Sequence record: PZ445412.1
DNA length: 50,731 nt
Strand: one strand, 5' to 3'
Source: a phage
Position numbers and translations under genes: made by a program. The notes beneath the pieces are model-generated. The model saw only the letters and a program-made list of their open reading frames with translations, was not told the origin of the DNA and ran no database searches. Positions 19,403 through 47,036 of this stretch are shown here, piece after piece. Numbering within the stretch: position 1 is the first letter of the stretch; each line of letters opens with the position of its first letter.

Positions 19403-19415
19403 AAGGAGTTAAATC

Positions 19416-19450
19416 AATGCCCTGGCTTAACGGTCGGGGCATTTTGTTTT
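19416..19450 (+). terminator. rho-independent terminator after J
   Basis: ATGCCC...GGGGCAT followed by TTTTGTTTTC. Confidence 0.6.
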
Positions 19451-19862
19451 CTTTTGTTCCACGATGTTCACAACCGAATCCGGCGTAAAATTGAAAACGT
19501 CTTGATAACAAAAAGAACAAATTAAATATCTATATAATACATACACTTAGAGTTTAATTATTATTATATATATCTATTTGTATTCTTCTTGTTTCCATTG
19601 TTCTCTATGGTTTGTGGTGGTTGTGTGTTTTGTATTGGTTGATGGTTATATATCACATGGTATGTATTTATATATGGTATGCGGCGTAAATGCGTAAACA
19701 ATGGAACGCAAAAACAACAATTAGTAAAATCATAAACTTACGATGTGATTTTGTTGTCAATGCTAGTTGTAAACGTATGCAAAACAAAAAGAACACTTAA
19801 AGGGTATTGACTACATGCAACAAAGACATATAATGCAGACATACCAACGAGAGGATGACCAA

Positions 19863-32203: not shown

Positions 32204-32426
32204 AAAAGAAACATGGGATTTAGCTAAAAAAGGCGGTCTTGATGAAGGGATCGCAAAAATAGCGCAATATTTCGATATTAAAGACGTGTGCGTTATTGTC
32301 GGTGATGAAATGGCATATGTGGATGAAAAGCCGCGCAAGGTTCATCGCGTTCCGGCAATTCCGACAACAATTGACTATAAAGAAGTGATCAACAAAACCA
32401 AAGAGCAAAGGAAATATTACAAGTGA
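32184..32426 (+). CDS. hypothetical protein
   Basis: 80-aa ORF overlapping upstream gene end. Confidence 0.35.
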   Translation: MKIMRGKKETWDLAKKGGLDEGIAKIAQYFDIKDVCVIVGDEMAYVDEKPRKVHRVPAIPTTIDYKEVINKTKEQRKYYK

Positions 32427-32519
32427 AAACAATTAAATTCATGTTTGCTGTTGCCTTGCCGCCAATGCTGGCATGGTTTATGATGTATGCCGTTGTTATG
32501 AAATAAGAGGATTTGTGAA

Positions 32520-33746: not shown

Positions 33747-33962
33747 ATGCGTGAATTTATTAACTTTGCAACTTATTCAAGCGGTGGCGCTACCTTCTCA
33801 GGCGCTGCAAGTGGTCAATTACTGTTGGCGGCTCTAACATTCATATTCTTTGTTATTTTCGGCGCTATTGGCTTGTGGTTAAGGTGGCGTGACAGCAAGG
33901 CGATCCGAGAAGCGTTAGAGTGTGGAGATCTTAAAACCGCTCTTAAAATTAACCAAAAATAG
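33747..33962 (+). CDS. holin (possible pinholin)
   Basis: 71 aa, hydrophobic TM segment LLLAALTFIFFVIFGAIGLWL, charged C-terminus; directly upstream of endolysin. Confidence 0.55.
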   Translation: MREFINFATYSSGGATFSGAASGQLLLAALTFIFFVIFGAIGLWLRWRDSKAIREALECGDLKTALKINQK

Positions 33963-33974
33963 GGAGTGAATTTA

Positions 33975-34469
33975 ATGGCTATTAAAAAGACAATAGCCGC
34001 TACCATAACGGGCGCGGCTCTAATGATGGCATCGCCCTTGATTGAAGAAATTGAGGGCGTGAGGTATAAGCCTTACAAGGATATTGCAGGAATCTGGACT
34101 GTATGCCACGGCATCACCGGAAAGGATGTGATATTAGGAAAGGAATATACCAGGCGAGAATGTGACGCGCTACTTGCAAAGCATATGAAAGTTGCGGCTG
34201 ACGCTGTTGATAAAGCGGTTAAGGTTGATATTCCTATTTCTATGCGAGCGGCCTTGTACTCATTCACATTCAACGCCGGAACGGGGGCATTCAGGAAATC
34301 AACCATGTTGAAGAAGATCAACAATGGTGATCTGTATGGTGGTTGTGGCGAGCTTTGGAACTGGACATATTACCGGAACCCGAAAACGGGCAAAAAGGAA
34401 AAATCAAAGGGATTGAAGAATCGCCGCGCTGTTGAATATAAATATTGTGTAATGGATCTGAATAAATGA
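33975..34469 (+). CDS. endolysin, lysozyme type with putative SAR N-terminus
   Basis: [23 protein letters not shown] closely matches the catalytic region of P21-type SAR lysozymes; Gly/Ala-rich weak TM at N-terminus. Confidence 0.75.
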
Positions 34470-34855
34470 AAAGAAAATTACTGGCTATTATGATGTGCAT
34501 TGCTCTTTCTGGTTGTTCAGCTTCAAGCGTGTTACCTGGTCTGATTGGTAGCAAGCCTGATATAACGGCACAGGCTGGAGCGGAGAATGTGAAACAGACT
34601 GTTGGTGTAACCGCAAAGCAGGATACATCAAGCAAGCAGAAAACCACATTCAAAGAATCGGCAGTTGGCGAGGTTGACACGTCTAATAAAAAGCAGGTGA
34701 GCACTTCAAGCATTAAGGCAGAAAACATCACAGCGGAAAGAATAGAGATCCGCAATAATGATGGTCTTAATGTTCCGGCAATCGCAATGGGTATATTGAT
34801 GTTTATTGCGGGTATGTTGGCGGGTTGGTCACTGAAACGAAATAAGGCGGCATAA
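34466..34855 (+). CDS. unimolecular spanin (u-spanin)
   Basis: Lipobox LSGC at N-terminus plus C-terminal TM helix; last gene of lysis cassette. Confidence 0.65.
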
Positions 34856-34871
34856 GCCGCCTTTATTATTA
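34841..34871. terminator. bidirectional terminator between lysis cassette and leftward operon
   Basis: GGCGGC-ataa-GCCGCC flanked by A-run and T-run. Confidence 0.6.
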
Positions 34872-35093
34872 AAAAATGTTGTTCATTAAGTCTTGGAAAG
34901 TATTTTCGCTATAATCCCTTTCCTCAATAATGTGAGCACCTTTCTTTTTTATGTTCCACAACATTTCTTCATATTCACTTCTGTTGATCCCAAAAGTTCT
35001 ACCATCATCAACAAAAGCAGTACCTTTATCGTTGAATGTATCAAATGTGACGTTAACAACGCGAGTGGTTTTGATAGTATATTTCAGAGTCAT
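34869..35093 (-). CDS. hypothetical protein
   Basis: 74 aa; preceded by box, hairpin and TCGAAACGAAAC leader; last gene of leftward operon. Confidence 0.45.
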   Translation of the reverse strand: MTLKYTIKTTRVVNVTFDTFNDKGTAFVDDGRTFGINRSEYEEMLWNIKKKGAHIIEERDYSENTFQDLMNNIF

Positions 35094-35152
35094 GGTTATT
35101 CCCCTTTGTTCGTTTCGTTTCGATGAAACAAATATACCCGATGCGAGATCGG

Positions 35153-35176
35153 GTTTTTTGACAAAAAGTGCTATTC
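35153..35176 (-). promoter_or_regulatory. conserved box plus hairpin element (minus orientation)
   Basis: Reverse complement GAATAGCACTTTTTGTCAAAAAAC; hairpin CCCGAT-ctcgc-ATCGGG; TATATT; TCGAAACGAAACGAAC. Confidence 0.6.
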
Positions 35177-35368
35177 AAAGCGTCTGACGTGAATCAGCAA
35201 TTCACCATCATTGTTTGTCAGTTGGTGCTCTTGATCCTCAAACGCTCGCATATCTGAATACAGGAGAAGCATTAAGGCATAAACAAAATCATCATGCGGA
35301 ATTTGCATTGCTGAACTTTCTTTCAAAATAAGATCTATCAAATGTTGGCTTGCTGAATAATTCTTCAT
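35171..35368 (-). CDS. hypothetical small protein (start uncertain; may begin at 35308)
   Basis: Stop codon TAG is embedded in box 35153-35176 as for other real genes; overlaps 35292-35684 in another frame. Confidence 0.3.
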   Translation of the reverse strand: MKNYSASQHLIDLILKESSAMQIPHDDFVYALMLLLYSDMRAFEDQEHQLTNNDGELLIHVRRFE

Positions 35369-35684
35369 CGCTCATTTTCTCAATGTTCATCATCTCCCAC
35401 ACATAACGATTGGAATCACCTTCCAGGCTATGCAACTCAAAATTAAACGGCCTTTTCATCTTGTTTTTGCACCAGTACACGCAATGAACGCCGTCAAGAT
35501 ATCCATAACCCATCATTCGCGCTATAAACTCTTTGCTTGAGCTTGATGCGAAATAGCGGGGCGTTACCCCCGCATTTTTGGCGAGCCTTTCACATTCACG
35601 GTGTCGGAATATAAATCTTGCTAACTCTTGGCGGTTGAATTTCTCGCGAGACTCGCAAAAGCGATACAGATCTAATAAGAACAT
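35292..35684 (-). CDS. hypothetical protein
   Basis: 130-aa ORF immediately downstream of the 526-aa gene. Confidence 0.45.
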   Translation of the reverse strand: MFLLDLYRFCESREKFNRQELARFIFRHRECERLAKNAGVTPRYFASSSSKEFIARMMGYGYLDGVHCVYWCKNKMKRPFNFELHSLEGDSNRYVWEMMNIEKMSDEELFSKPTFDRSYFERKFSNANSA

Positions 35685-41573: not shown

Positions 41574-41628
41574 TTTGTAATCCTCAATTCGTTTCGATGA
41601 AGTAATCATAGCAATTCGTGACTGATTG

Positions 41629-41650
41629 GTTTTAACAAAAAGTGCTATTC
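41629..41650 (-). promoter_or_regulatory. conserved 22-bp box, first element of leftward operon
   Basis: Box followed by CCAATCAG, CACGAATTGCTA and TCATCGAAACGAATTGAGG. Confidence 0.55.
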
Positions 41651-41656
41651 ATGCGA

Positions 41657-41684
41657 TAGACCGATTGGTCTAGACCGTTTGGTC
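41657..41684. promoter_or_regulatory. two abutting 14-bp palindromes (operator-like)
   Basis: AGACCGATTGGTCT and AGACCGTTTGGTCT just upstream of the first leftward box. Confidence 0.55.
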
Positions 41685-41721
41685 TAATGAACACATCGTT
41701 TTCTGTATCGAACGGATTCAC

Positions 41722-41815
41722 GATCACGTTATGCGATCACAATATGATCATGTTGATGATTGATGTGTGAGTTGATTTGATTTTATTTGATGGGATTTGA
41801 TTAGATTTGAGTAGC
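41722..41815. repeat. GATC cluster plus 10-bp-phased ATTTGA iterons (candidate origin or protein-binding array)
   Basis: Three GATC within 30 bp; ATTTGA at 41775, 41785, 41795, 41805 with exact 10-bp spacing. Confidence 0.6.
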
Positions 41816-42248
41816 TAGTGAGCAGAAATAATCACACCTTGCCGATCAGAGAAAACTTTTCCCGCAAAACATCACTCCAGGCTAGCTCTTGTCTCAATCT
41901 GTTTTCTGCTGTCTCAATTCGCACATTCCGCAAAAAAGCGAAACGGTTCACAAACAGAAAGAACAAATAAATCACCTATATAATAATAATAAAATCAACT
42001 AGTTAGTTATATATATCTATTTATGGTTATATATCTGTCTTAGTTGTTCTGTCTATATAGGCATACCCTGGTATATTTCAATTTATATATTGATATTGGT
42101 ATCTATGGGTATATATATCTATATATGCTCGATTTCCGGCGCAAACTGGTGAACAGGCGAAAAAGACAAGCGTTTTCATTGCTTTGCGTTGAAATTTGTC
42201 TCAAATCGCATATTGAAATGTATTAAGAACCAAAAGAACTTGACACGT

Positions 42249-42275
42249 TATAGAACAAGTTATAACATTCACGGC
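42249..42275 (+). promoter_or_regulatory. sigma70-like promoter candidate for rightward early genes
   Basis: TTGACA, 15-nt spacer, TATAAC; followed by ACCAATCAGGAGG leader. Confidence 0.35.
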
Positions 42276-42304
42276 GTACCAAAAACCAATCAGGAGGAAA
42301 AACA

Positions 42305-42760
42305 ATGGAAGAATTCGACTACATCCCAATGAAAGATTTCTGCAACGGCCTACGCGAAAAGGCAAAGAGCATTGCAGAAGGTGAACCACTAGTGATCCCG
42401 TTGGCTATGCTGGTTCAAAAACTGCATCCAGAAGATGCGAGAAAGGTTACAGCCAGCTACATAAGAACCATCCTTGTGCGCACACCTGAAATCAAAGAGA
42501 AAGGAAGCGTGAGCATCAAGAAGTGCAATTGCCCGGATCGCGGTGAATACCTTGAAGTGACGCTCAACGAAAACAAAAAGCGTCGAGTGATCACAAGTGA
42601 CGACCTTCCAGCAATCAAGGAGGCGGCTGTAAGTAGCGCTTTCGAGAAGTTTATGCACATTCAGCCTGACGTTACAGATCTTGAAGGTGATCAGTTAGTT
42701 GGTGCTACTGTAGCGTTGCGCCGCATGAAAAATCTGATTAAGTCAATGATTAAGGGGTGA
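42305..42760 (+). CDS. hypothetical protein, first gene of rightward early block
   Basis: 151 aa; RBS CAGGAGGA; TTGACA promoter-like hexamer upstream at 42249. Confidence 0.5.
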   Translation: MEEFDYIPMKDFCNGLREKAKSIAEGEPLVIPLAMLVQKLHPEDARKVTASYIRTILVRTPEIKEKGSVSIKKCNCPDRGEYLEVTLNENKKRRVITSDDLPAIKEAAVSSAFEKFMHIQPDVTDLEGDQLVGATVALRRMKNLIKSMIKG

Positions 42761-43047
42761 TGAAAATGAAAATGTCTAAAATAGACTCACTAGCAAAGGT
42801 GATTGCCGAGGAATTGCGAGATCAGAGCGTTAGTGATTCAGATTGGAATATCCTAAAAGAAAACGTTATGCGCCTGTTAGGTAATCGTGTGAGAGTTGTT
42901 TCTGACTACATTGACACGAAAGGCCGAGAATGCACTATGGATGTTGTTTATGTTGCCGGATCGCCAGCGTACCTAACAGCAACAAAAGCTCTCATTGAAA
43001 GCGGAGCTAAATTTACAGTTATTCCGTTGACAGTGACAAAGGGGTGA
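42757..43047 (+). CDS. hypothetical protein
   Basis: 96-aa ORF overlapping upstream stop. Confidence 0.4.
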   Translation: MMKMKMSKIDSLAKVIAEELRDQSVSDSDWNILKENVMRLLGNRVRVVSDYIDTKGRECTMDVVYVAGSPAYLTATKALIESGAKFTVIPLTVTKG

Positions 43048-43051
43048 TGTG

Positions 43052-43153
43052 ATGAATACAAAATACATTGAATTGTGTCTATGCTTGCTTATCCTGGCTT
43101 ATCCTGGCGATTGCGGCAACTTTCGGATCGATGGCTGTTATGATTTTTGTTGA
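43052..43153 (+). CDS. tiny Cys-rich peptide (33 aa); an alternative overlapping TM peptide in another frame ends at 43175
   Basis: ATG 7 nt after RBS-like AAAGGGGTG; alternative frame gives a hydrophobic peptide whose stop overlaps the next ATG. Confidence 0.25.
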   Translation: MNTKYIELCLCLLILAYPGDCGNFRIDGCYDFC

Positions 43154-43171
43154 CGCTATGGACGGCCTAAA

Positions 43172-43279
43172 ATGAAAGCATTCGCCTTTGTCGCTGCAAT
43201 GTGGTGTGTTGTTATTGATAGTCCTGGCGTGGCGCTAGTTGTGTTGGGTCTGATTTTGTTGGGGGTGTTTGATGAATAA
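43172..43279 (+). CDS. tiny single-TM peptide (35 aa)
   Basis: MKAFAFVAAMWCVVIDSPGVALVVLGLILLGVFDE; coupled to neighbours. Confidence 0.35.
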   Translation: MKAFAFVAAMWCVVIDSPGVALVVLGLILLGVFDE

Positions 43280-43385
43280 GAAACTTTTAGATCATGCCGT
43301 GGTGTTCTTTATCGCTGCTGCTGGATTTTCGCTGTTGTCAATTGCTTTTTCAATCCTTGCTTTTGCCGTGTCAATGCTGAAATGA
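43272..43385 (+). CDS. tiny single-TM peptide (37 aa)
   Basis: MNKKLLDHAVVFFIAAAGFSLLSIAFSILAFAVSMLK; ATG overlaps upstream stop. Confidence 0.35.
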   Translation: MNKKLLDHAVVFFIAAAGFSLLSIAFSILAFAVSMLK

Positions 43386-43405
43386 CGGATTACATCCTGA
43401 TTGGT

Positions 43406-43427
43406 AAATAGCACTTTTTGTTAAAAC
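43406..43427 (+). promoter_or_regulatory. conserved 22-bp box plus hairpin element
   Basis: Box; hairpin GGGGT...ACCCC enclosing TTGACATAATT; TCGAAACGAAACGAGG. Confidence 0.6.
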
Positions 43428-43482: not shown

Positions 43483-43740
43483 ATGTTTGAACTGAAACGC
43501 GTAACTGTTGAGATCCTGAATGATGGCTCTTACGATGGAATGAAACACTTAACCTTCCCGATCCGCATTGAGAATTGCATTGATTATGGTATTGAAGTTG
43601 GAATGGTTGACGTTCCGCTTGATGCACTTATCGCGGCTGGCTATGACAAAGAGAAAGGCCAATGTGCTGATATACCGGATAGCTATGAAAGCGACACGCA
43701 TTTCCCGTTCACATATGGCGAATGCCGGATTGTTGATTGA
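43483..43740 (+). CDS. hypothetical acidic protein
   Basis: Start MFELKRV at 43483 after box, hairpin and TCGAAACGAAACGAGG leader. Confidence 0.45.
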   Translation: MFELKRVTVEILNDGSYDGMKHLTFPIRIENCIDYGIEVGMVDVPLDALIAAGYDKEKGQCADIPDSYESDTHFPFTYGECRIVD

Positions 43741-43812
43741 GGTTATAAAATGAGCAGTTAGCACAATGAGCACGTAATGCAATTCTACCGCCATAGAATA
43801 AAGAAAATTCTC

Positions 43813-43833
43813 AATAGCACGAATTGCTAAAAC
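43813..43833 (+). promoter_or_regulatory. conserved box (GAATTG type)
   Basis: AATAGCACGAATTGCTAAAAC; hairpin GGTAT-agtaatccc-ATACC with TATAGT. Confidence 0.55.
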
Positions 43834-43889
43834 AGAATCTTGGGCTTGCGGTATAGTAATCCCATACCAAACAAATAGAGGATCACAAA

Positions 43890-44204
43890 ATGGAATTAGC
43901 ACGTAACGCGATTTATGGTTTACACCTCAAAGGCGGCAAAGGTTCAACTTATGCGCACCTGTTTCATGTTAACGATCGCGGCCAGGTTGATATTGCAATG
44001 TATGTTGACCAACTGGTTAAAGGTTGTGAGTCCGACAAGTTCAGACCGGACCTGATTGAATACGATCACACATACAGTCATGACCACTGGTTAGATGGTT
44101 ATAAGTTTACAATGCTGGATACCCATGTTATTGACACAGGCAAGTTAACTAATCGAGACTATAAGCGCATGGCTCGAAAGGTAGTTAAACTTAAAGCGCA
44201 ATAG
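43890..44204 (+). CDS. hypothetical protein
   Basis: 104 aa; preceded by GAATTG-type box 43813-43833. Confidence 0.45.
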   Translation: MELARNAIYGLHLKGGKGSTYAHLFHVNDRGQVDIAMYVDQLVKGCESDKFRPDLIEYDHTYSHDHWLDGYKFTMLDTHVIDTGKLTNRDYKRMARKVVKLKAQ

Positions 44205-44276: not shown

Positions 44277-44384
44277 ATGTCTAAAGAGTCTATCAAGCAA
44301 TTTCTGAAATACGGTTCTATGATTGTGCTCGCTACCGTTGTGCTGGCTGGCATCGCATATAGCATTATTGAGTTTGCGGGGTAA
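44277..44384 (+). CDS. tiny single-TM peptide (35 aa)
   Basis: MSKESIKQFLKYGSMIVLATVVLAGIAYSIIEFAG; preceded by box variant, hairpin with TGGTATAAT, RBS AAGGAG. Confidence 0.4.
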   Translation: MSKESIKQFLKYGSMIVLATVVLAGIAYSIIEFAG

Positions 44385-44930: not shown

Positions 44931-45103
44931 AACTAAAATGCATCGGTGAATATCCAGGTTTTACGGTTGGCAACATGTACAATGCAACAATCGGAATGGA
45001 TCACACATTTGGTTATGAATGCTATGTTGTCATTGATGATGATGGTGATTCACGTAGCATTGATTTCGAAACAGAGGATTTTATAGAGGATCGCTATCTG
45101 TGA
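44927..45103 (+). CDS. hypothetical small acidic protein (58 aa)
   Basis: ATG overlaps upstream stop (ATGA); acidic C-terminus. Confidence 0.35.
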   Translation: MKLKCIGEYPGFTVGNMYNATIGMDHTFGYECYVVIDDDGDSRSIDFETEDFIEDRYL

Positions 45104-45200
45104 TTGAAAACTATGATCCAATGGCGCTTGCTTGGGGGATTGGTGCTTTTATCGTGGCGGTTGTGATTTTCTTATGGGATATCAACAGGAGAGACAAATA

Positions 45201-45380
45201 ATGTATACATACGTTTTACTGATGGTTGTCATGGGCTATCAATCAGGCGGCGCTTTGAGTCATGAGTTTACCGGAATTGAAGCGTGTGAGAATGCAGCAC
45301 AGCAGATGAAAGAGAAGTTGGGGCGCAATCGTGATGTTGTTTATTCATGCGTACCGAAAAACTCAAGTCTCGTTAAATAG
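45201..45380 (+). CDS. hypothetical small protein
   Basis: Start MYTYVLL at 45201 with RBS GGAGAGA; stop embedded in box 45375-45396; a 26-aa hydrophobic peptide ORF (45121-45201) precedes it. Confidence 0.4.
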   Translation: MYTYVLLMVVMGYQSGGALSHEFTGIEACENAAQQMKEKLGRNRDVVYSCVPKNSSLVK

Positions 45381-46735: not shown

Positions 46736-46900
46736 ATGTTTTGGATTCATTCGCCGCAAGGATTGCTTTATGTGCCTGGCGTTGAGTTAGAAGAGCGGCG
46801 CGACGGCGACACGGTGAACATCATAACGAAGGATTCAAAAGGCCATACACTAAAAACGTATGTTTTTAACACTCCGGTTAAGGTTGAAAAAGATGATTAA
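46736..46900 (+). CDS. hypothetical small protein (54 aa)
   Basis: ATG 3 nt after upstream stop; not in the 60-aa track. Confidence 0.35.
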   Translation: MFWIHSPQGLLYVPGVELEERRDGDTVNIITKDSKGHTLKTYVFNTPVKVEKDD

Positions 46901-47036
46901 GATGTGGTTAATATTTATCCTGCTTGTCATAATTGGCAATATTTTGATTGTCGCTAATTGTGTTCCTTTTGGTGGCGCTGTTTTGGGTATGGCTGGTTAT
47001 TACGTTGGGTATAAAGGGAATAAATTAGATGAATAG
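46893..47036 (+). CDS. tiny membrane peptide (47 aa)
   Basis: MIKMWLIFILLVIIGNILIVANCVPFGGAVLGMAGYYVGYKGNKLDE; overlaps neighbours. Confidence 0.35.
   Translation: MIKMWLIFILLVIIGNILIVANCVPFGGAVLGMAGYYVGYKGNKLDE

What the first reader, a model, noticed from the sequence alone, without database searches (positions are those of the whole stretch)
43052..43385. Cluster of three back-to-back tiny single-TM peptide genes, plus at least four more elsewhere
Between 43047 and 43406 there are three overlapping mini-ORFs (33-37 aa) whose products are essentially one transmembrane helix each, with start and stop codons overlapping. Similar tiny hydrophobic peptides occur at 44277-44384, 45121-45201, 46893-47036 and 32424-32507. 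All are below the 60-aa cutoff of the ORF track. Such peptides in phage early regions often act as membrane-targeting inhibitors (superinfection exclusion, inhibitors of host transporters or cell division, holin modulators).
Basis: partly seen in the sequence, partly recalled or inferred. Interest (0 to 1): 0.5.

Follow-up and report, generated by a model that had tools for sequence, protein, structure and literature searches.

The report
Small membrane-peptide genes in T1-like phage
The window is coliphage DanielBernoulli (Bas08), and the flagged spot holds two intact small hydrophobic-peptide genes plus a frameshifted third; they are conserved, mostly already annotated as hypothetical proteins, and their function is unknown, so the finding is real but ordinary.

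Summary
The window is the complete genome of Escherichia phage DanielBernoulli (Bas08, MZ501059.1; Drexlerviridae, Tlsvirus).

**The trio at 43052-43385**
- g2 (43172-43279, 35 aa) and g3 (43272-43385, 37 aa) are intact and annotated in GenBank (bas08_0067 and bas08_0068). They have Shine-Dalgarno sites or start/stop overlaps, and substitution patterns in relatives favour their frames.
- g1 (from 43052) is broken here by a 10-bp tandem duplication at 43087-43106. Its 33-aa product has only a 12-residue apolar stretch. Intact 37-aa copies exist in phages Sazh, Stevie and U136B.

**The other four**
- 44277-44384, 45100-45201 (start GTG 45100, not ATG 45121) and 46893-47036 are also annotated.
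- 32423-32506 was unannotated in every record whose feature table I read, yet its frame is kept across several Drexlerviridae lineages.

**Chance:** hydrophobicity alone is weak evidence, because 60 of 475 six-frame mini-ORFs look transmembrane-like.

**Family and function**
- No peptide matches a Pfam, NCBIfam or PDB family. PHROGs lists g2 and g4 as unknown function.
- g2 is probably related to phage T1 orf73 (hhalign 91%).
- No experimental data were found.

The likeliest reading is accessory small inner-membrane proteins coupled to early-region operons. The "membrane-targeting inhibitor" role remains a guess.

The parts
42240..42268 (+). Best sigma-70-like promoter match in the region (TTGACA-17-TAACAT), 37 nt upstream of bas08_0065. 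It is the putative start of the transcription unit that ends with g1-g3.
   Evidence: consensus scan only; function inferred
42305..43047 (+). bas08_0065 (42305-42760, 151 aa) and bas08_0066 (42766-43047, 93 aa), the upstream genes of the same unit; function unknown.
   Evidence: phrog_4841 and phrog_38282, unknown function; Pfam DUF7174 on the 0065 product
43052..43175 (+). g1, a frameshifted remnant of a 37-aa single-TM peptide gene. A strong Shine-Dalgarno site (GGGGTG) precedes ATG 43052. A 10-bp tandem duplication at 43087-43106 ends the frame at 43153. The original C-terminal frame continues to the TGA at 43173-43175, which overlaps the g2 ATG.
   Evidence: intact orthologues are annotated in Sazh (CPT_Sazh_003, 'TMD N in C out'), Stevie60 and U136B_003
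43172..43279 (+). g2 = bas08_0067, 35 aa, hydrophobic with a central D-S-P-G / G-H-P-G turn and an acidic C-terminus (GVFDE). It belongs to phrog_22353 and is probably related to T1 orf73.
43272..43385 (+). g3 = bas08_0068, 37 aa, N-terminal MNKK followed by a 28-residue apolar helix. A GGGGGTG Shine-Dalgarno site lies 6 nt upstream, and the gene overlaps g2 by 8 nt.
43406..43427 (+). Copy of the 22-bp Drexlerviridae repeat AAATAGCACTTTTTGTTAAAAC, which marks the end of the g1-g3 unit and the start of the next module. There are 11 copies in the genome, co-oriented with transcription.
   Evidence: described for TLS, Stevie and T1 in PMC11447400 and PMC4319613
44277..44384 (+). g4 = bas08_0071, 35 aa, N-in single-TM peptide. 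It has an AGGAG Shine-Dalgarno site and sits 3 nt upstream of the polynucleotide kinase gene. It belongs to phrog_17726 and shows the strongest purifying selection of the set.
   Evidence: pN/pS 0.06; variable sites 4/2/17
45100..45201 (+). g5 = bas08_0074, 33 aa, acidic N-terminus, 20-residue apolar helix and basic C-terminus (N-out/C-in predicted). The start is GTG 45100, not ATG 45121.
   Evidence: found in few relatives, with an in-frame stop in phage Brooksby
46893..47036 (+). g6 = bas08_0081, 47 aa, one long hydrophobic helix, a D/N-C-V-P-F-G-G turn and a Gly/Tyr-rich second segment (1-2 TMD).
   Evidence: Tls gp17, '2 TMD'; 15 distinct conserved members
32423..32506 (+). g7, a 27-aa hydrophobic mini-ORF, unannotated in every feature table read. 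Its GTG start overlaps the stop of bas08_0040 (GTGA), and its stop abuts the Shine-Dalgarno site of the phosphoesterase gene bas08_0041.

Best explanation
g2, g3, g4, g5 and g6, and probably g7, are genuine genes for very small inner-membrane proteins of 27-47 aa, each essentially one hydrophobic helix.

**Expression (inferred).** They are not separate transcription units. They ride on the rightward operons of the phage's non-structural region. The trio closes the first module, which runs from a sigma-70-like promoter at 42240 to the 22-bp repeat at 43406. Translation uses their own Shine-Dalgarno sites and/or coupling to the preceding gene through overlapping stop and start codons.

**g1.** It is the same kind of gene, but in this phage a 10-bp tandem duplication has inactivated it.

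**Accessory status.** The patchy distribution and independent decay of g1 and g5 argue that these are accessory genes rather than core replication or assembly functions.

**Mode of action (inferred, not shown).** The most likely mechanism is helix-helix binding inside the cytoplasmic membrane to a host or phage membrane protein, modulating it. This is how bacterial small membrane proteins such as AcrZ, MgrB and SgrT work (my own knowledge). The target is unknown.
For: **Gene reality**
- All are on the same strand as their neighbours and fill gaps between annotated genes.
- Shine-Dalgarno sites: GGGGGTG for g3, AGGAG for g4, AGAGGA for g5, AAGGAAA for g7.
- The g2 start overlaps the stop of whichever gene lies upstream (ATGA, GTGA or TTGA) in every locus aligned, even where that gene differs.
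- No internal stop occurs in 20 (g2), 11 (g3) or 16 (g4) distinct nucleotide versions. Codon position 2 is the least variable: 14/8/19, 5/1/8 and 4/2/17.
- pN/pS is lowest in the proposed frame: 0.40, 0.11, 0.06 and 0.26.
- g6 has 15 distinct conserved protein versions.
- g7 keeps its frame through a 9-nt indel across Tlsvirus, Vibrio phage Vc1 and phage Motto.

**Membrane character**
- KD19 is 2.2-2.9, with 17-28-residue apolar stretches and charged flanks.
- Transmembrane-domain notes appear in the Sazh, Tls and T1 records.

**Age of the g2 family**
- The g2 profile aligns full-length and ungapped to T1 orf73: hhalign probability 90.8%, E 1.2e-6. T1 orf73 has the same coupled, module-end position.

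**Accessory status**
- Among the public phage records, g1-region DNA was found in five phages and is frameshifted independently in two of them, Bas08 and UTK0006. Two metagenome contigs also carry intact copies.
- g3 is lost in the NBSal001 group, and g5 carries a stop in Brooksby.

**Class recurrence**
- Other Drexlerviridae carry unrelated conserved mini-TM ORFs in the same region.
Against: - There is no direct evidence of translation, membrane insertion or any phenotype, and I found no paper on these genes.
- Hydrophobic mini-ORFs arise easily by chance in this genome: 12.6% of six-frame ORFs.
- Selection signals are weak for g5, g6 and g7 (pN/pS 0.26, about 1 and 0.70, from few sequences). 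For g2 and g3 the codon-position test is not significant on its own (p = 0.11 and 0.07).
- The pooled pairwise pN/pS is not phylogenetically corrected.
- g3 and its flank are nearly invariant at the DNA level, so part of its conservation could reflect recent spread or a DNA-level constraint.
- The early timing and the binding-partner mechanism are inference only.
Confidence: 0.6

Rival explanations
1. They act specifically as superinfection-exclusion or DNA-entry blockers. TolC-targeting Tlsvirus phages lack the receptor-binding-protein locus downstream of gpJ, where other Drexlerviridae are suggested to keep cognate exclusion genes. One or more of these membrane peptides would fill that role, for example by acting on the TolC-associated envelope machinery or on DNA passage through the inner membrane.
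For: - The BASEL paper states that the RBP locus, suggested to carry cognate superinfection-exclusion proteins, is absent in TolC-targeting phages including Bas08 (PMC8594841).
- The peptides are predicted membrane proteins in a putatively early operon.
- In T1 the g2 homologue is translationally coupled to a 57-aa lipobox protein, that is, another envelope protein.
Against: - There is no sequence relation to any known exclusion protein, and no lipobox in g1-g7.
- The g2 family also occurs in FhuA-type T1 phages, so it is not TolC-specific.
- No exclusion phenotype is reported for these phages in the papers searched.
Confidence: 0.12
2. They are membrane-damaging or depolarising peptides, like type I toxins or holins. 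They would be used for host shut-off or to tune lysis timing, as holin or antiholin modulators.
For: Their size and composition (27-37 aa, one hydrophobic helix, charged ends) resemble type I toxins such as TisB, Ldr and Hok, and small holins (my own knowledge; composition).
Against: - No match to any toxin or holin family in Pfam or NCBIfam, and no Rfam antisense-RNA family in the window.
- The lysis cassette (holin, endolysin, u-spanin) is complete and about 8 kb away, at window 33747-34855.
- Early depolarisation would harm a phage that needs an energised host.
Confidence: 0.1
3. Some of them are not functional peptides. They would be chance hydrophobic ORFs in T-rich spacers, or short ORFs kept only to couple translation of flanking genes, so that the act of translation matters rather than the product. 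This applies mainly to g7, g5 and the residual g1 frames.
For: - 12.6% of six-frame mini-ORFs are TM-like.
- g7 starts on the upstream stop codon and ends at the downstream Shine-Dalgarno site, with pN/pS 0.70.
- g5 is rare and truncated in Brooksby.
- g1 is already broken in two phages.
- The g3 slot in the NBSal001 group holds a 22-aa hydrophobic ORF that looks like a deletion by-product.
Against: - g2, g3 and g4 show frame-specific constraint and dozens of intact copies.
- The C-terminal half of g7 (W-V/F-I/M-M-Y-A-V-V-M) is conserved across three lineages, with pN/pS 0.50.
- g6 has a conserved non-trivial motif.
Confidence: 0.15

Closest known systems
Orthologous trio in Tlsvirus phages Sazh (CPT_Sazh_003/004/005), Stevie (gp60/61/62) and U136B (003/004)
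   Same: Same three genes in the same order, with the same overlaps and sizes (37, 35 and 37 aa). The Sazh record already notes 'TMD N in C out / N in C out / N out C in'.
   Different: In Bas08 the first gene is frameshifted by a 10-bp duplication. U136B annotates an antisense 40-aa ORF instead of the third gene. None has a known function.
Phage T1 orf73 (AAP49927.1, 36 aa, phrog_25570)
   Same: Same length and hydrophobic layout, a central G-H, and a C-terminal GAF(D/E). It is ATGA-coupled to the upstream gene and sits last-but-one before a 22-bp repeat. Profile-profile probability is 90.8%.
   Different: Sequence-to-profile search is not significant (E 0.3-1.5). The downstream partner in T1 is a 57-aa lipobox protein, not a g3-like TM peptide. 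It is also uncharacterised.
Bacterial small inner-membrane regulators (AcrZ, MgrB, SgrT, YohP and similar)
   Same: Size class (under 50 aa), a single transmembrane helix and no enzymatic domain. YohP-type proteins are described as essentially one transmembrane domain (PMC7549839, PMC12648545). The proposed way of working is binding a larger membrane protein.
   Different: No sequence similarity. These peptides are phage-encoded, and their partners are unknown. The resemblance is functional analogy from my own knowledge, not a test.
Phage membrane-located superinfection-exclusion proteins (T4 Imm/Sp, HK97 gp15, Cor/Llp lipoproteins)
   Same: Small envelope-located phage proteins encoded outside the structural genes (my own knowledge).
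   Different: The known examples are larger or are lipoproteins. There is no lipobox here, no family match and no exclusion phenotype known.
Type I toxin peptides and small holins
   Same: Length and hydrophobic-helix-plus-charged-tail composition.
   Different: No family match, no antisense RNA family and no proximity to the lysis cassette.

Membership tests
PHROG phrog_22353 (g2) and phrog_17726 (g4), phage protein families of unknown function | Full-length significant match to the family profile | tested here: met
   g2: E 3.6e-25 over 1-35/35. g4: E 4.6e-28 over 1-35/35. g1, g3, g5, g6 and g7 match no PHROG.
T1 orf73 family (phrog_25570) | Sequence homology to the 36-aa T1 orf73 peptides | tested here: inconclusive
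   hhalign of the g2 alignment against the T1-group alignment: probability 90.8%, E 1.2e-6, 34 ungapped columns. hmmsearch of the g2 HMM gives only E 0.3-1.5. Compositional bias of transmembrane peptides may inflate the profile score.
T1 orf73 family (phrog_25570) | Same genomic position: translationally coupled, second-to-last gene of a module that ends at a 22-bp repeat | tested here: met
   T1: the orf74 stop overlaps the orf73 ATG (ATGA), the orf73 stop overlaps the orf72 ATG, and a repeat lies at 2269. Bas08: the same layout, with the repeat at 43406.
Type I toxin peptides (Hok/Gef, Ldr, Ibs, TisB, ShoB and similar) | Match to a curated toxin family model | tested here: not met
   No Pfam or NCBIfam hit at E <= 1 apart from sub-threshold noise.
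Type I toxin peptides | Cognate antisense or overlapping regulatory RNA | tested here: not met
   No Rfam family reaches its gathering score anywhere in the window. An undescribed antisense RNA cannot be excluded.
Holin / antiholin | Encoded in or next to the lysis cassette with the endolysin | tested here: not met
   Holin, endolysin and u-spanin are at record 34283-35391 (window 33747-34855), 8-13 kb from g1-g6.
Cor/Llp-type superinfection-exclusion lipoproteins | Signal peptide with a lipobox [LVI][ASTVI][GAS]C | tested here: not met
   No lipobox in any of g1-g7.
Cor/Llp-type superinfection-exclusion lipoproteins | Blocks the phage's own receptor when expressed | not testable with these tools
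   Needs plating or adsorption assays.
Small single-pass inner-membrane proteins (generic class) | An apolar segment long enough to span the bilayer (about 18 or more residues) flanked by charged residues | tested here: met
   g3 28, g4 20, g5 20, g7 21 and repaired g1 23 residues. g2 has 17 plus a second 13-residue apolar segment. g6 has 18 plus 18. The as-is g1 product has only 12 and fails.
Small single-pass inner-membrane proteins (generic class) | Demonstrated translation and membrane localisation | not testable with these tools
   No Ribo-seq, proteomic or fractionation data were found for any Tlsvirus phage.

The most novel reading that the evidence does not exclude
The conserved g2 family (Tlsvirus g2 and T1 orf73), together with whichever small envelope protein is coupled downstream of it (g3 in Tlsvirus, a lipoprotein in T1), would form a two-part early membrane module common to Drexlerviridae. 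It would target a host envelope complex, for example to exclude superinfecting phage or protect the infected cell envelope. In TolC-targeting phages this would replace the missing gpJ-linked exclusion locus. The other mini-peptides would be further host-specific transmembrane 'adaptors', gained and lost with host range, as shown by g1 being broken in the E. coli K-12 and Salmonella isolates but intact in the Citrobacter phages.
Probability: 0.1. Interest if true: 0.6.

Novelty: new member of a known kind. Interest (0 to 1): 0.25.

Why it matters
Small membrane proteins are an under-studied class in both bacteria and phages, and T1-like phages are widely used in defence-system screens, including Bas08. 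A short, evidence-ranked list of genes follows.
- **Best supported:** g4, g3 and g2.
- **Decayed:** g1.
- **Unannotated in the records read but conserved:** g7.

The link from g2 to T1 orf73 gives experimenters concrete deletion and expression targets. If any of these peptides binds a host membrane complex it would be a compact tool or inhibitor. As it stands, this is a tidy annotation result rather than a discovery.

Tried and rejected
- **Family searches.** Pfam, NCBIfam and PDB sequence searches of all the peptides found nothing. PHROGs gave only unknown-function families, for the neighbouring genes as well.
- **Homologue searches.** The search for homologous proteins refuses queries under 40 aa. 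An exhaustive HMMER search of g2 against 1.84 billion representatives found only 2 close relatives. tblastn of g3 and g4 found only Tlsvirus records at 90% identity or more.
- **Paralogy among g1-g7.** The shuffling test gave at best z = 3.3 (g1/g3 and g3/g4), which is not significant after 21 comparisons. g1 and g3 do share a similar Shine-Dalgarno and start context (D1), so paralogy stays an unproven hint.
- **Positional analogue of g4.** No hydrophobic mini-ORF lies directly upstream of the polynucleotide kinase gene in other Drexlerviridae.
- **The antisense 40-aa ORF over g3.** It is annotated in U136B, UTK0006, Brooksby, GJL01 and CF1. I rejected it: it has no Shine-Dalgarno site, opposes all its neighbours, and fits the substitutions worse than the forward frame.
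- **Literature.** Searches for functional, transcriptomic or Ribo-seq data on Drexlerviridae early genes or on Bas08 genes returned nothing relevant. The daunorubicin and Druantia preprints use Bas08 or its relatives but do not touch these genes.
- **Rfam scan.** The whole window gave no hits.
- **Structure prediction.** I did not attempt it. Single-sequence models of 35-aa helices would not discriminate between the hypotheses.
Full report
**Identity of the window**

A 5-kb stretch around the finding is 100% identical to Escherichia phage DanielBernoulli. This is Bas08 of the BASEL collection, MZ501059.1 (Drexlerviridae, Tempevirinae, Tlsvirus). The record is 50,731 bp, the same length as the window, and record coordinate = window + 536. 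Close relatives are the TolC-specific phages Tls, LL5, U136B, Stevie and Sazh, plus several Salmonella phages.

**What is at 43052-43385**

The sequence and ORF list show two clean + strand mini-ORFs:
- g2, 43172-43279, 35 aa: MKAFAFVAAMWCVVIDSPGVALVVLGLILLGVFDE.
- g3, 43272-43385, 37 aa: MNKKLLDHAVVFFIAAAGFSLLSIAFSILAFAVSMLK.

Both are annotated in GenBank as hypothetical proteins bas08_0067 and bas08_0068. g3 has a strong Shine-Dalgarno site (GGGGGTG, 6 nt upstream) and overlaps the end of g2 by 8 nt.

**The first ORF (g1) is broken in this phage**

- From ATG 43052, which has a GGGGTG Shine-Dalgarno site, the frame runs only to 43153. The product is MNTKYIELCLCLLILAYPGDCGNFRIDGCYDFC, whose longest apolar run is 12 residues.
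- Alignment with Sazh, U136B and Stevie shows that Bas08 carries a 10-bp tandem duplication, GCTTATCCTG twice, at 43087-43106.
- Removing one copy restores a 37-aa peptide, MNTKYIELCLCLLILAIAATFGSMAVMIFVDAMDGLK. Its TGA overlaps the g2 ATG.
- This matches the intact, annotated genes in Sazh (note 'TMD N in C out'), Stevie gp60 and U136B_003. It also matches two metagenomic contigs.
- UTK0006, which shares the same upstream gene as Bas08, has an independent 1-nt deletion in codon 4 of the same gene.
- Most Tlsvirus genomes lack g1 altogether.
- The cluster in this phage is therefore two live genes plus one remnant.

**The four "elsewhere" ORFs**

| ORF | Window coordinates | GenBank | Notes |
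|---|---|---|---|
| g4 | 44277-44384 | bas08_0071 | AGGAG Shine-Dalgarno site |
| g5 | 45100-45201 | bas08_0074 | see below |
| g6 | 46893-47036 | bas08_0081 | 47 aa |
| g7 | 32423-32506 | unannotated | GTG start, 27 aa |

- For g5, the conserved start with a Shine-Dalgarno site is GTG 45100.
- g7 is unannotated in Bas08 and in every relative whose feature table I read: ElisaCorrea, KMM3, Stevie, Tls, YSP2, Vc1 and Motto.

**Is it more than chance?**

- Hydrophobicity by itself is weak evidence. Of 475 six-frame ORFs of 25-60 aa, 60 reach the Kyte-Doolittle transmembrane criterion, against 25 +/- 4.5 in mononucleotide shuffles.
- Context and conservation are what set the candidates apart. Among 14 annotated CDS of 60 aa or less, five are strongly hydrophobic (KD19 >= 2.19), and all five lie in the rightward operons between 43.1 and 47.0 kb. 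Only 3 of 71 larger CDS exceed KD19 2.1.
- Comparative data came from 8 GenBank relatives, 72 IMG/VR loci anchored on the polynucleotide kinase gene, and 10 contigs encoding an identical g2.

| Gene | Pooled pN/pS in proposed frame | Distinct nucleotide versions, none with internal stops | Variable sites by codon position 1/2/3 |
|---|---|---|---|
| g2 | 0.40 | 20 | 14/8/19 |
| g3 | 0.11 | 11 | 5/1/8 |
| g4 | 0.06 | 16 | 4/2/17 (p = 2e-4) |
| g5 | 0.26 | few; one carries a stop | 8/4/10 |

- For each of g2 to g5 the proposed frame has the lowest pN/pS of the six frames.
- Position 2, which specifies hydrophobicity, is always the least variable.
- g5 and g6 have too few nucleotide homologues to judge: pN/pS is 0.26 and about 1, and g5 carries a stop in Brooksby. 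At the protein level, however, g6 has 15 distinct members with a conserved GNILIVADCVPFGG...GMAGYYVGYK core.
- g7 keeps its start-on-stop arrangement, its frame (through a 9-nt indel) and a conserved C-terminal W-(V/F)-(I/M)-M-Y-A-V-V-M. This holds in Tlsvirus, Vibrio phage Vc1 (Jhansiroadvirus) and phage Motto. pN/pS is 0.70 overall and 0.50 in the C-terminal half.
- In Tls, an HNH endonuclease gene (endY) is inserted into the 3' end of g7.

**Competing annotation of g3**

Several relatives (U136B_005, PJM39_0004, BROOKSBY_64, GJL01_50, CF1) annotate a 40-aa ORF on the opposite strand instead of g3. That ORF has no Shine-Dalgarno site, opposes all its neighbours, and fits the substitutions less well (0.24 or worse, against 0.11). 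In GJL01, all seven differences from Bas08 that I read in the alignment are synonymous in the forward frame, and the two proteins are identical. Tls gp03 (59 aa) is a 5'-extended reading of g3. Tls g2 starts with TTG and is unannotated.

**Context**

- The best sigma-70-like match in the region is TTGACA-17-TAACAT at 42240-42268, just upstream of bas08_0065.
- Twenty nucleotides after the g3 stop lies a copy of the 22-bp repeat AAATAGCACTTTTTGTTAAAAC at 43406-43427. It occurs 11 times in the genome, always co-oriented with transcription. Further copies lie at 45375 and 47794.
- This element is already described for TLS (21 nt, found about 76 nt upstream of start codons, role unknown), Stevie and T1 (PMC11447400, PMC4319613).
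- The trio therefore closes the first rightward module (0065, 0066, g1, g2, g3). g4 and g5 lie in the second module with the polynucleotide kinase gene, and g6 lies in the third.
- In every locus aligned, the g2 start overlaps the stop of whatever gene precedes it (ATGA, GTGA or TTGA), although that gene differs between phages. This argues for conserved translational coupling.
- All neighbouring genes except the polynucleotide kinase and dNMP kinase genes are of unknown function.

**Relatives and known families**

- Only g2 (phrog_22353) and g4 (phrog_17726) match PHROGs, and both are unknown function. Pfam, NCBIfam and PDB give nothing.
- All public names are "hypothetical protein".
- tblastn finds g3 in 36 phage records and g4 in 44, all Tlsvirus at 90% identity or more.
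- An exhaustive HMMER search of g2 against 1.84 billion representatives finds two close relatives only.
- A crude scan of the 72 Drexlerviridae loci showed that other genera carry their own conserved mini-TM ORFs in this region.
- It also exposed 36-aa peptides in the T1 group with the g2 layout: a central G-H and a C-terminal GAF(D/E). Profile-profile comparison of the two alignments gives 90.8% probability (E 1.2e-6) over 34 ungapped columns. The sequence-to-profile search is not significant.
- The T1 member is orf73, annotated "single transmembrane domain predicted N-in and C-out". It is ATGA-coupled to orf74 upstream and to orf72 downstream, and a 22-bp repeat follows. orf72 is a 57-aa protein with a lipobox.
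- The T1 arrangement has the same architecture as g2-g3 in Bas08, with a different small envelope protein in the second slot.

**How it most likely works**

- **Shown:** the ORFs exist, are co-oriented, have ribosome-binding signals or coupling, are hydrophobic enough to span a membrane, and (g2, g3, g4) evolve as coding sequence.
- **Inferred:** they are translated from the early-region operons and inserted into the cytoplasmic membrane. Predicted topology is N-in for g3 and g4 and N-out for g5, from flanking charges. They act by helix-helix contact with a larger membrane protein, as bacterial small membrane proteins do (my own knowledge).
- Their patchy presence, and the independent inactivation of g1 in Bas08 and UTK0006, argue that they are accessory and possibly host-specific.
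One circumstantial point favours an exclusion role. TolC-targeting Drexlerviridae, including Bas08, lack the gpJ-adjacent locus suggested to hold cognate exclusion genes in other family members (PMC8594841). However, the g2 family also occurs in T1-type phages.
- A toxin- or holin-like role is less likely. There is no family match, no antisense RNA family, and the complete lysis cassette lies elsewhere.

**Verdict**

The genes are mostly already annotated, and the trio carries transmembrane-domain notes in the record of a sister phage. They are uncharacterised members of a familiar class, small phage membrane peptides.

The additions from this work are:
- the frameshifting duplication in g1;
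- evidence ranking of the seven ORFs;
- the probable link of g2 to T1 orf73;
- the conserved g7, unannotated in every record read.

Interest is low to moderate.

Noticed in passing
window 43087-43106: A 10-bp tandem duplication (GCTTATCCTG twice) frameshifts the first mini-gene. The closest relative, UTK0006, has an independent 1-nt deletion in the same gene, while the gene is intact in Sazh, Stevie, U136B and two metagenome contigs.
   Followed up: yes
window 32423-32506: A hydrophobic mini-ORF of 24-27 aa between bas08_0040 and the phosphoesterase gene, unannotated in every feature table I read. It is conserved in Tlsvirus, Vibrio phage Vc1 and phage Motto. In Tls, LL5 and CF1 an HNH endonuclease gene sits at this spot; in Tls it replaces the 3' end of the mini-ORF.
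   Followed up: yes
window 20917, 30605, 31963, 35155(-), 37998(-), 40047(-), 40768(-), 41629(-), 43406, 45375, 47794: Eleven copies of the 22-bp repeat AAATAGCACTTTTTGTTAAAAC, co-oriented with transcription. Similarity continues about 50 nt further downstream (TTGACATAATTACCCC...GAGGAAAATAAAATG) between at least two copies. The repeat is already described for TLS, Stevie and T1, with unknown role.
   Followed up: partly
L079/L100 (phage T1, AY216660 1992-2272): T1 orf73 (36 aa) is a probable homologue of g2. It is translationally coupled to orf72, a 57-aa protein with a lipobox (LVVSGC), and both are annotated only as hypothetical.
   Followed up: partly
window 43292-43414 (- strand) and relatives: A 40-aa antisense ORF over g3 is annotated as a CDS in U136B, UTK0006, Brooksby, GJL01 and CF1. 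It is probably a mis-call. Tls gp03 (59 aa) is a 5'-extended g3, and Tls g2 (TTG start) is not annotated.
   Followed up: yes
L010, L092, L097 (NBSal001-type phages), position equivalent to window 43272-43385: g3 is replaced by a 22-aa hydrophobic ORF (MNSAQITFCILIGYMFFL..FC) that looks like a deletion/insertion derivative running into the spacer before the 22-bp repeat.
   Followed up: partly
loci L019-L082: Other Drexlerviridae carry their own conserved mini-TM ORFs near the polynucleotide kinase gene. Examples are MPDFSNWNNEPPSFQELLFCLLVLTLSLKGVLWLLS and MNLYEFIAAHPVLTVIILLIINHTIINVAKLFLGRY in the T1 group, and MRYIAILFTAILFTIAIINYAIQLG in another group of loci.
   Followed up: no
window 43740-43890: The 26-aa Stp-like peptide gene that Tls (gp05), Stevie (gp66) and U136B (009) carry after the bas08_0069 homologue has no counterpart here. 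No + strand ORF of 20 aa or more lies within this gap.
   Followed up: partly
window 19403-19814: An unannotated gap of about 410 bp after the J-like tail-tip gene. According to the BASEL paper, this is where other Drexlerviridae carry the receptor-binding-protein and exclusion locus, which is absent in TolC-targeting phages. It holds only short, unconvincing ORFs.
   Followed up: partly
window 41574-42304: A 730-bp AT-rich non-coding region between the divergent leftward and rightward operons. It contains short direct repeats (TATATATATCTAT(T/A)TATG twice, GATTTGATT..TTTGA twice) and a palindrome at 41657-41686.
   Followed up: no
public records: 'Streptococcus phage MBBL140', several 'Campylobacter phage' records and 'Pseudomonas phage Motto' match this Drexlerviridae genome, so their host labels may be doubtful. 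The 90% cluster containing g3 has a 2106-aa Trichoderma protein as its representative, which is a clustering artefact.
   Followed up: no
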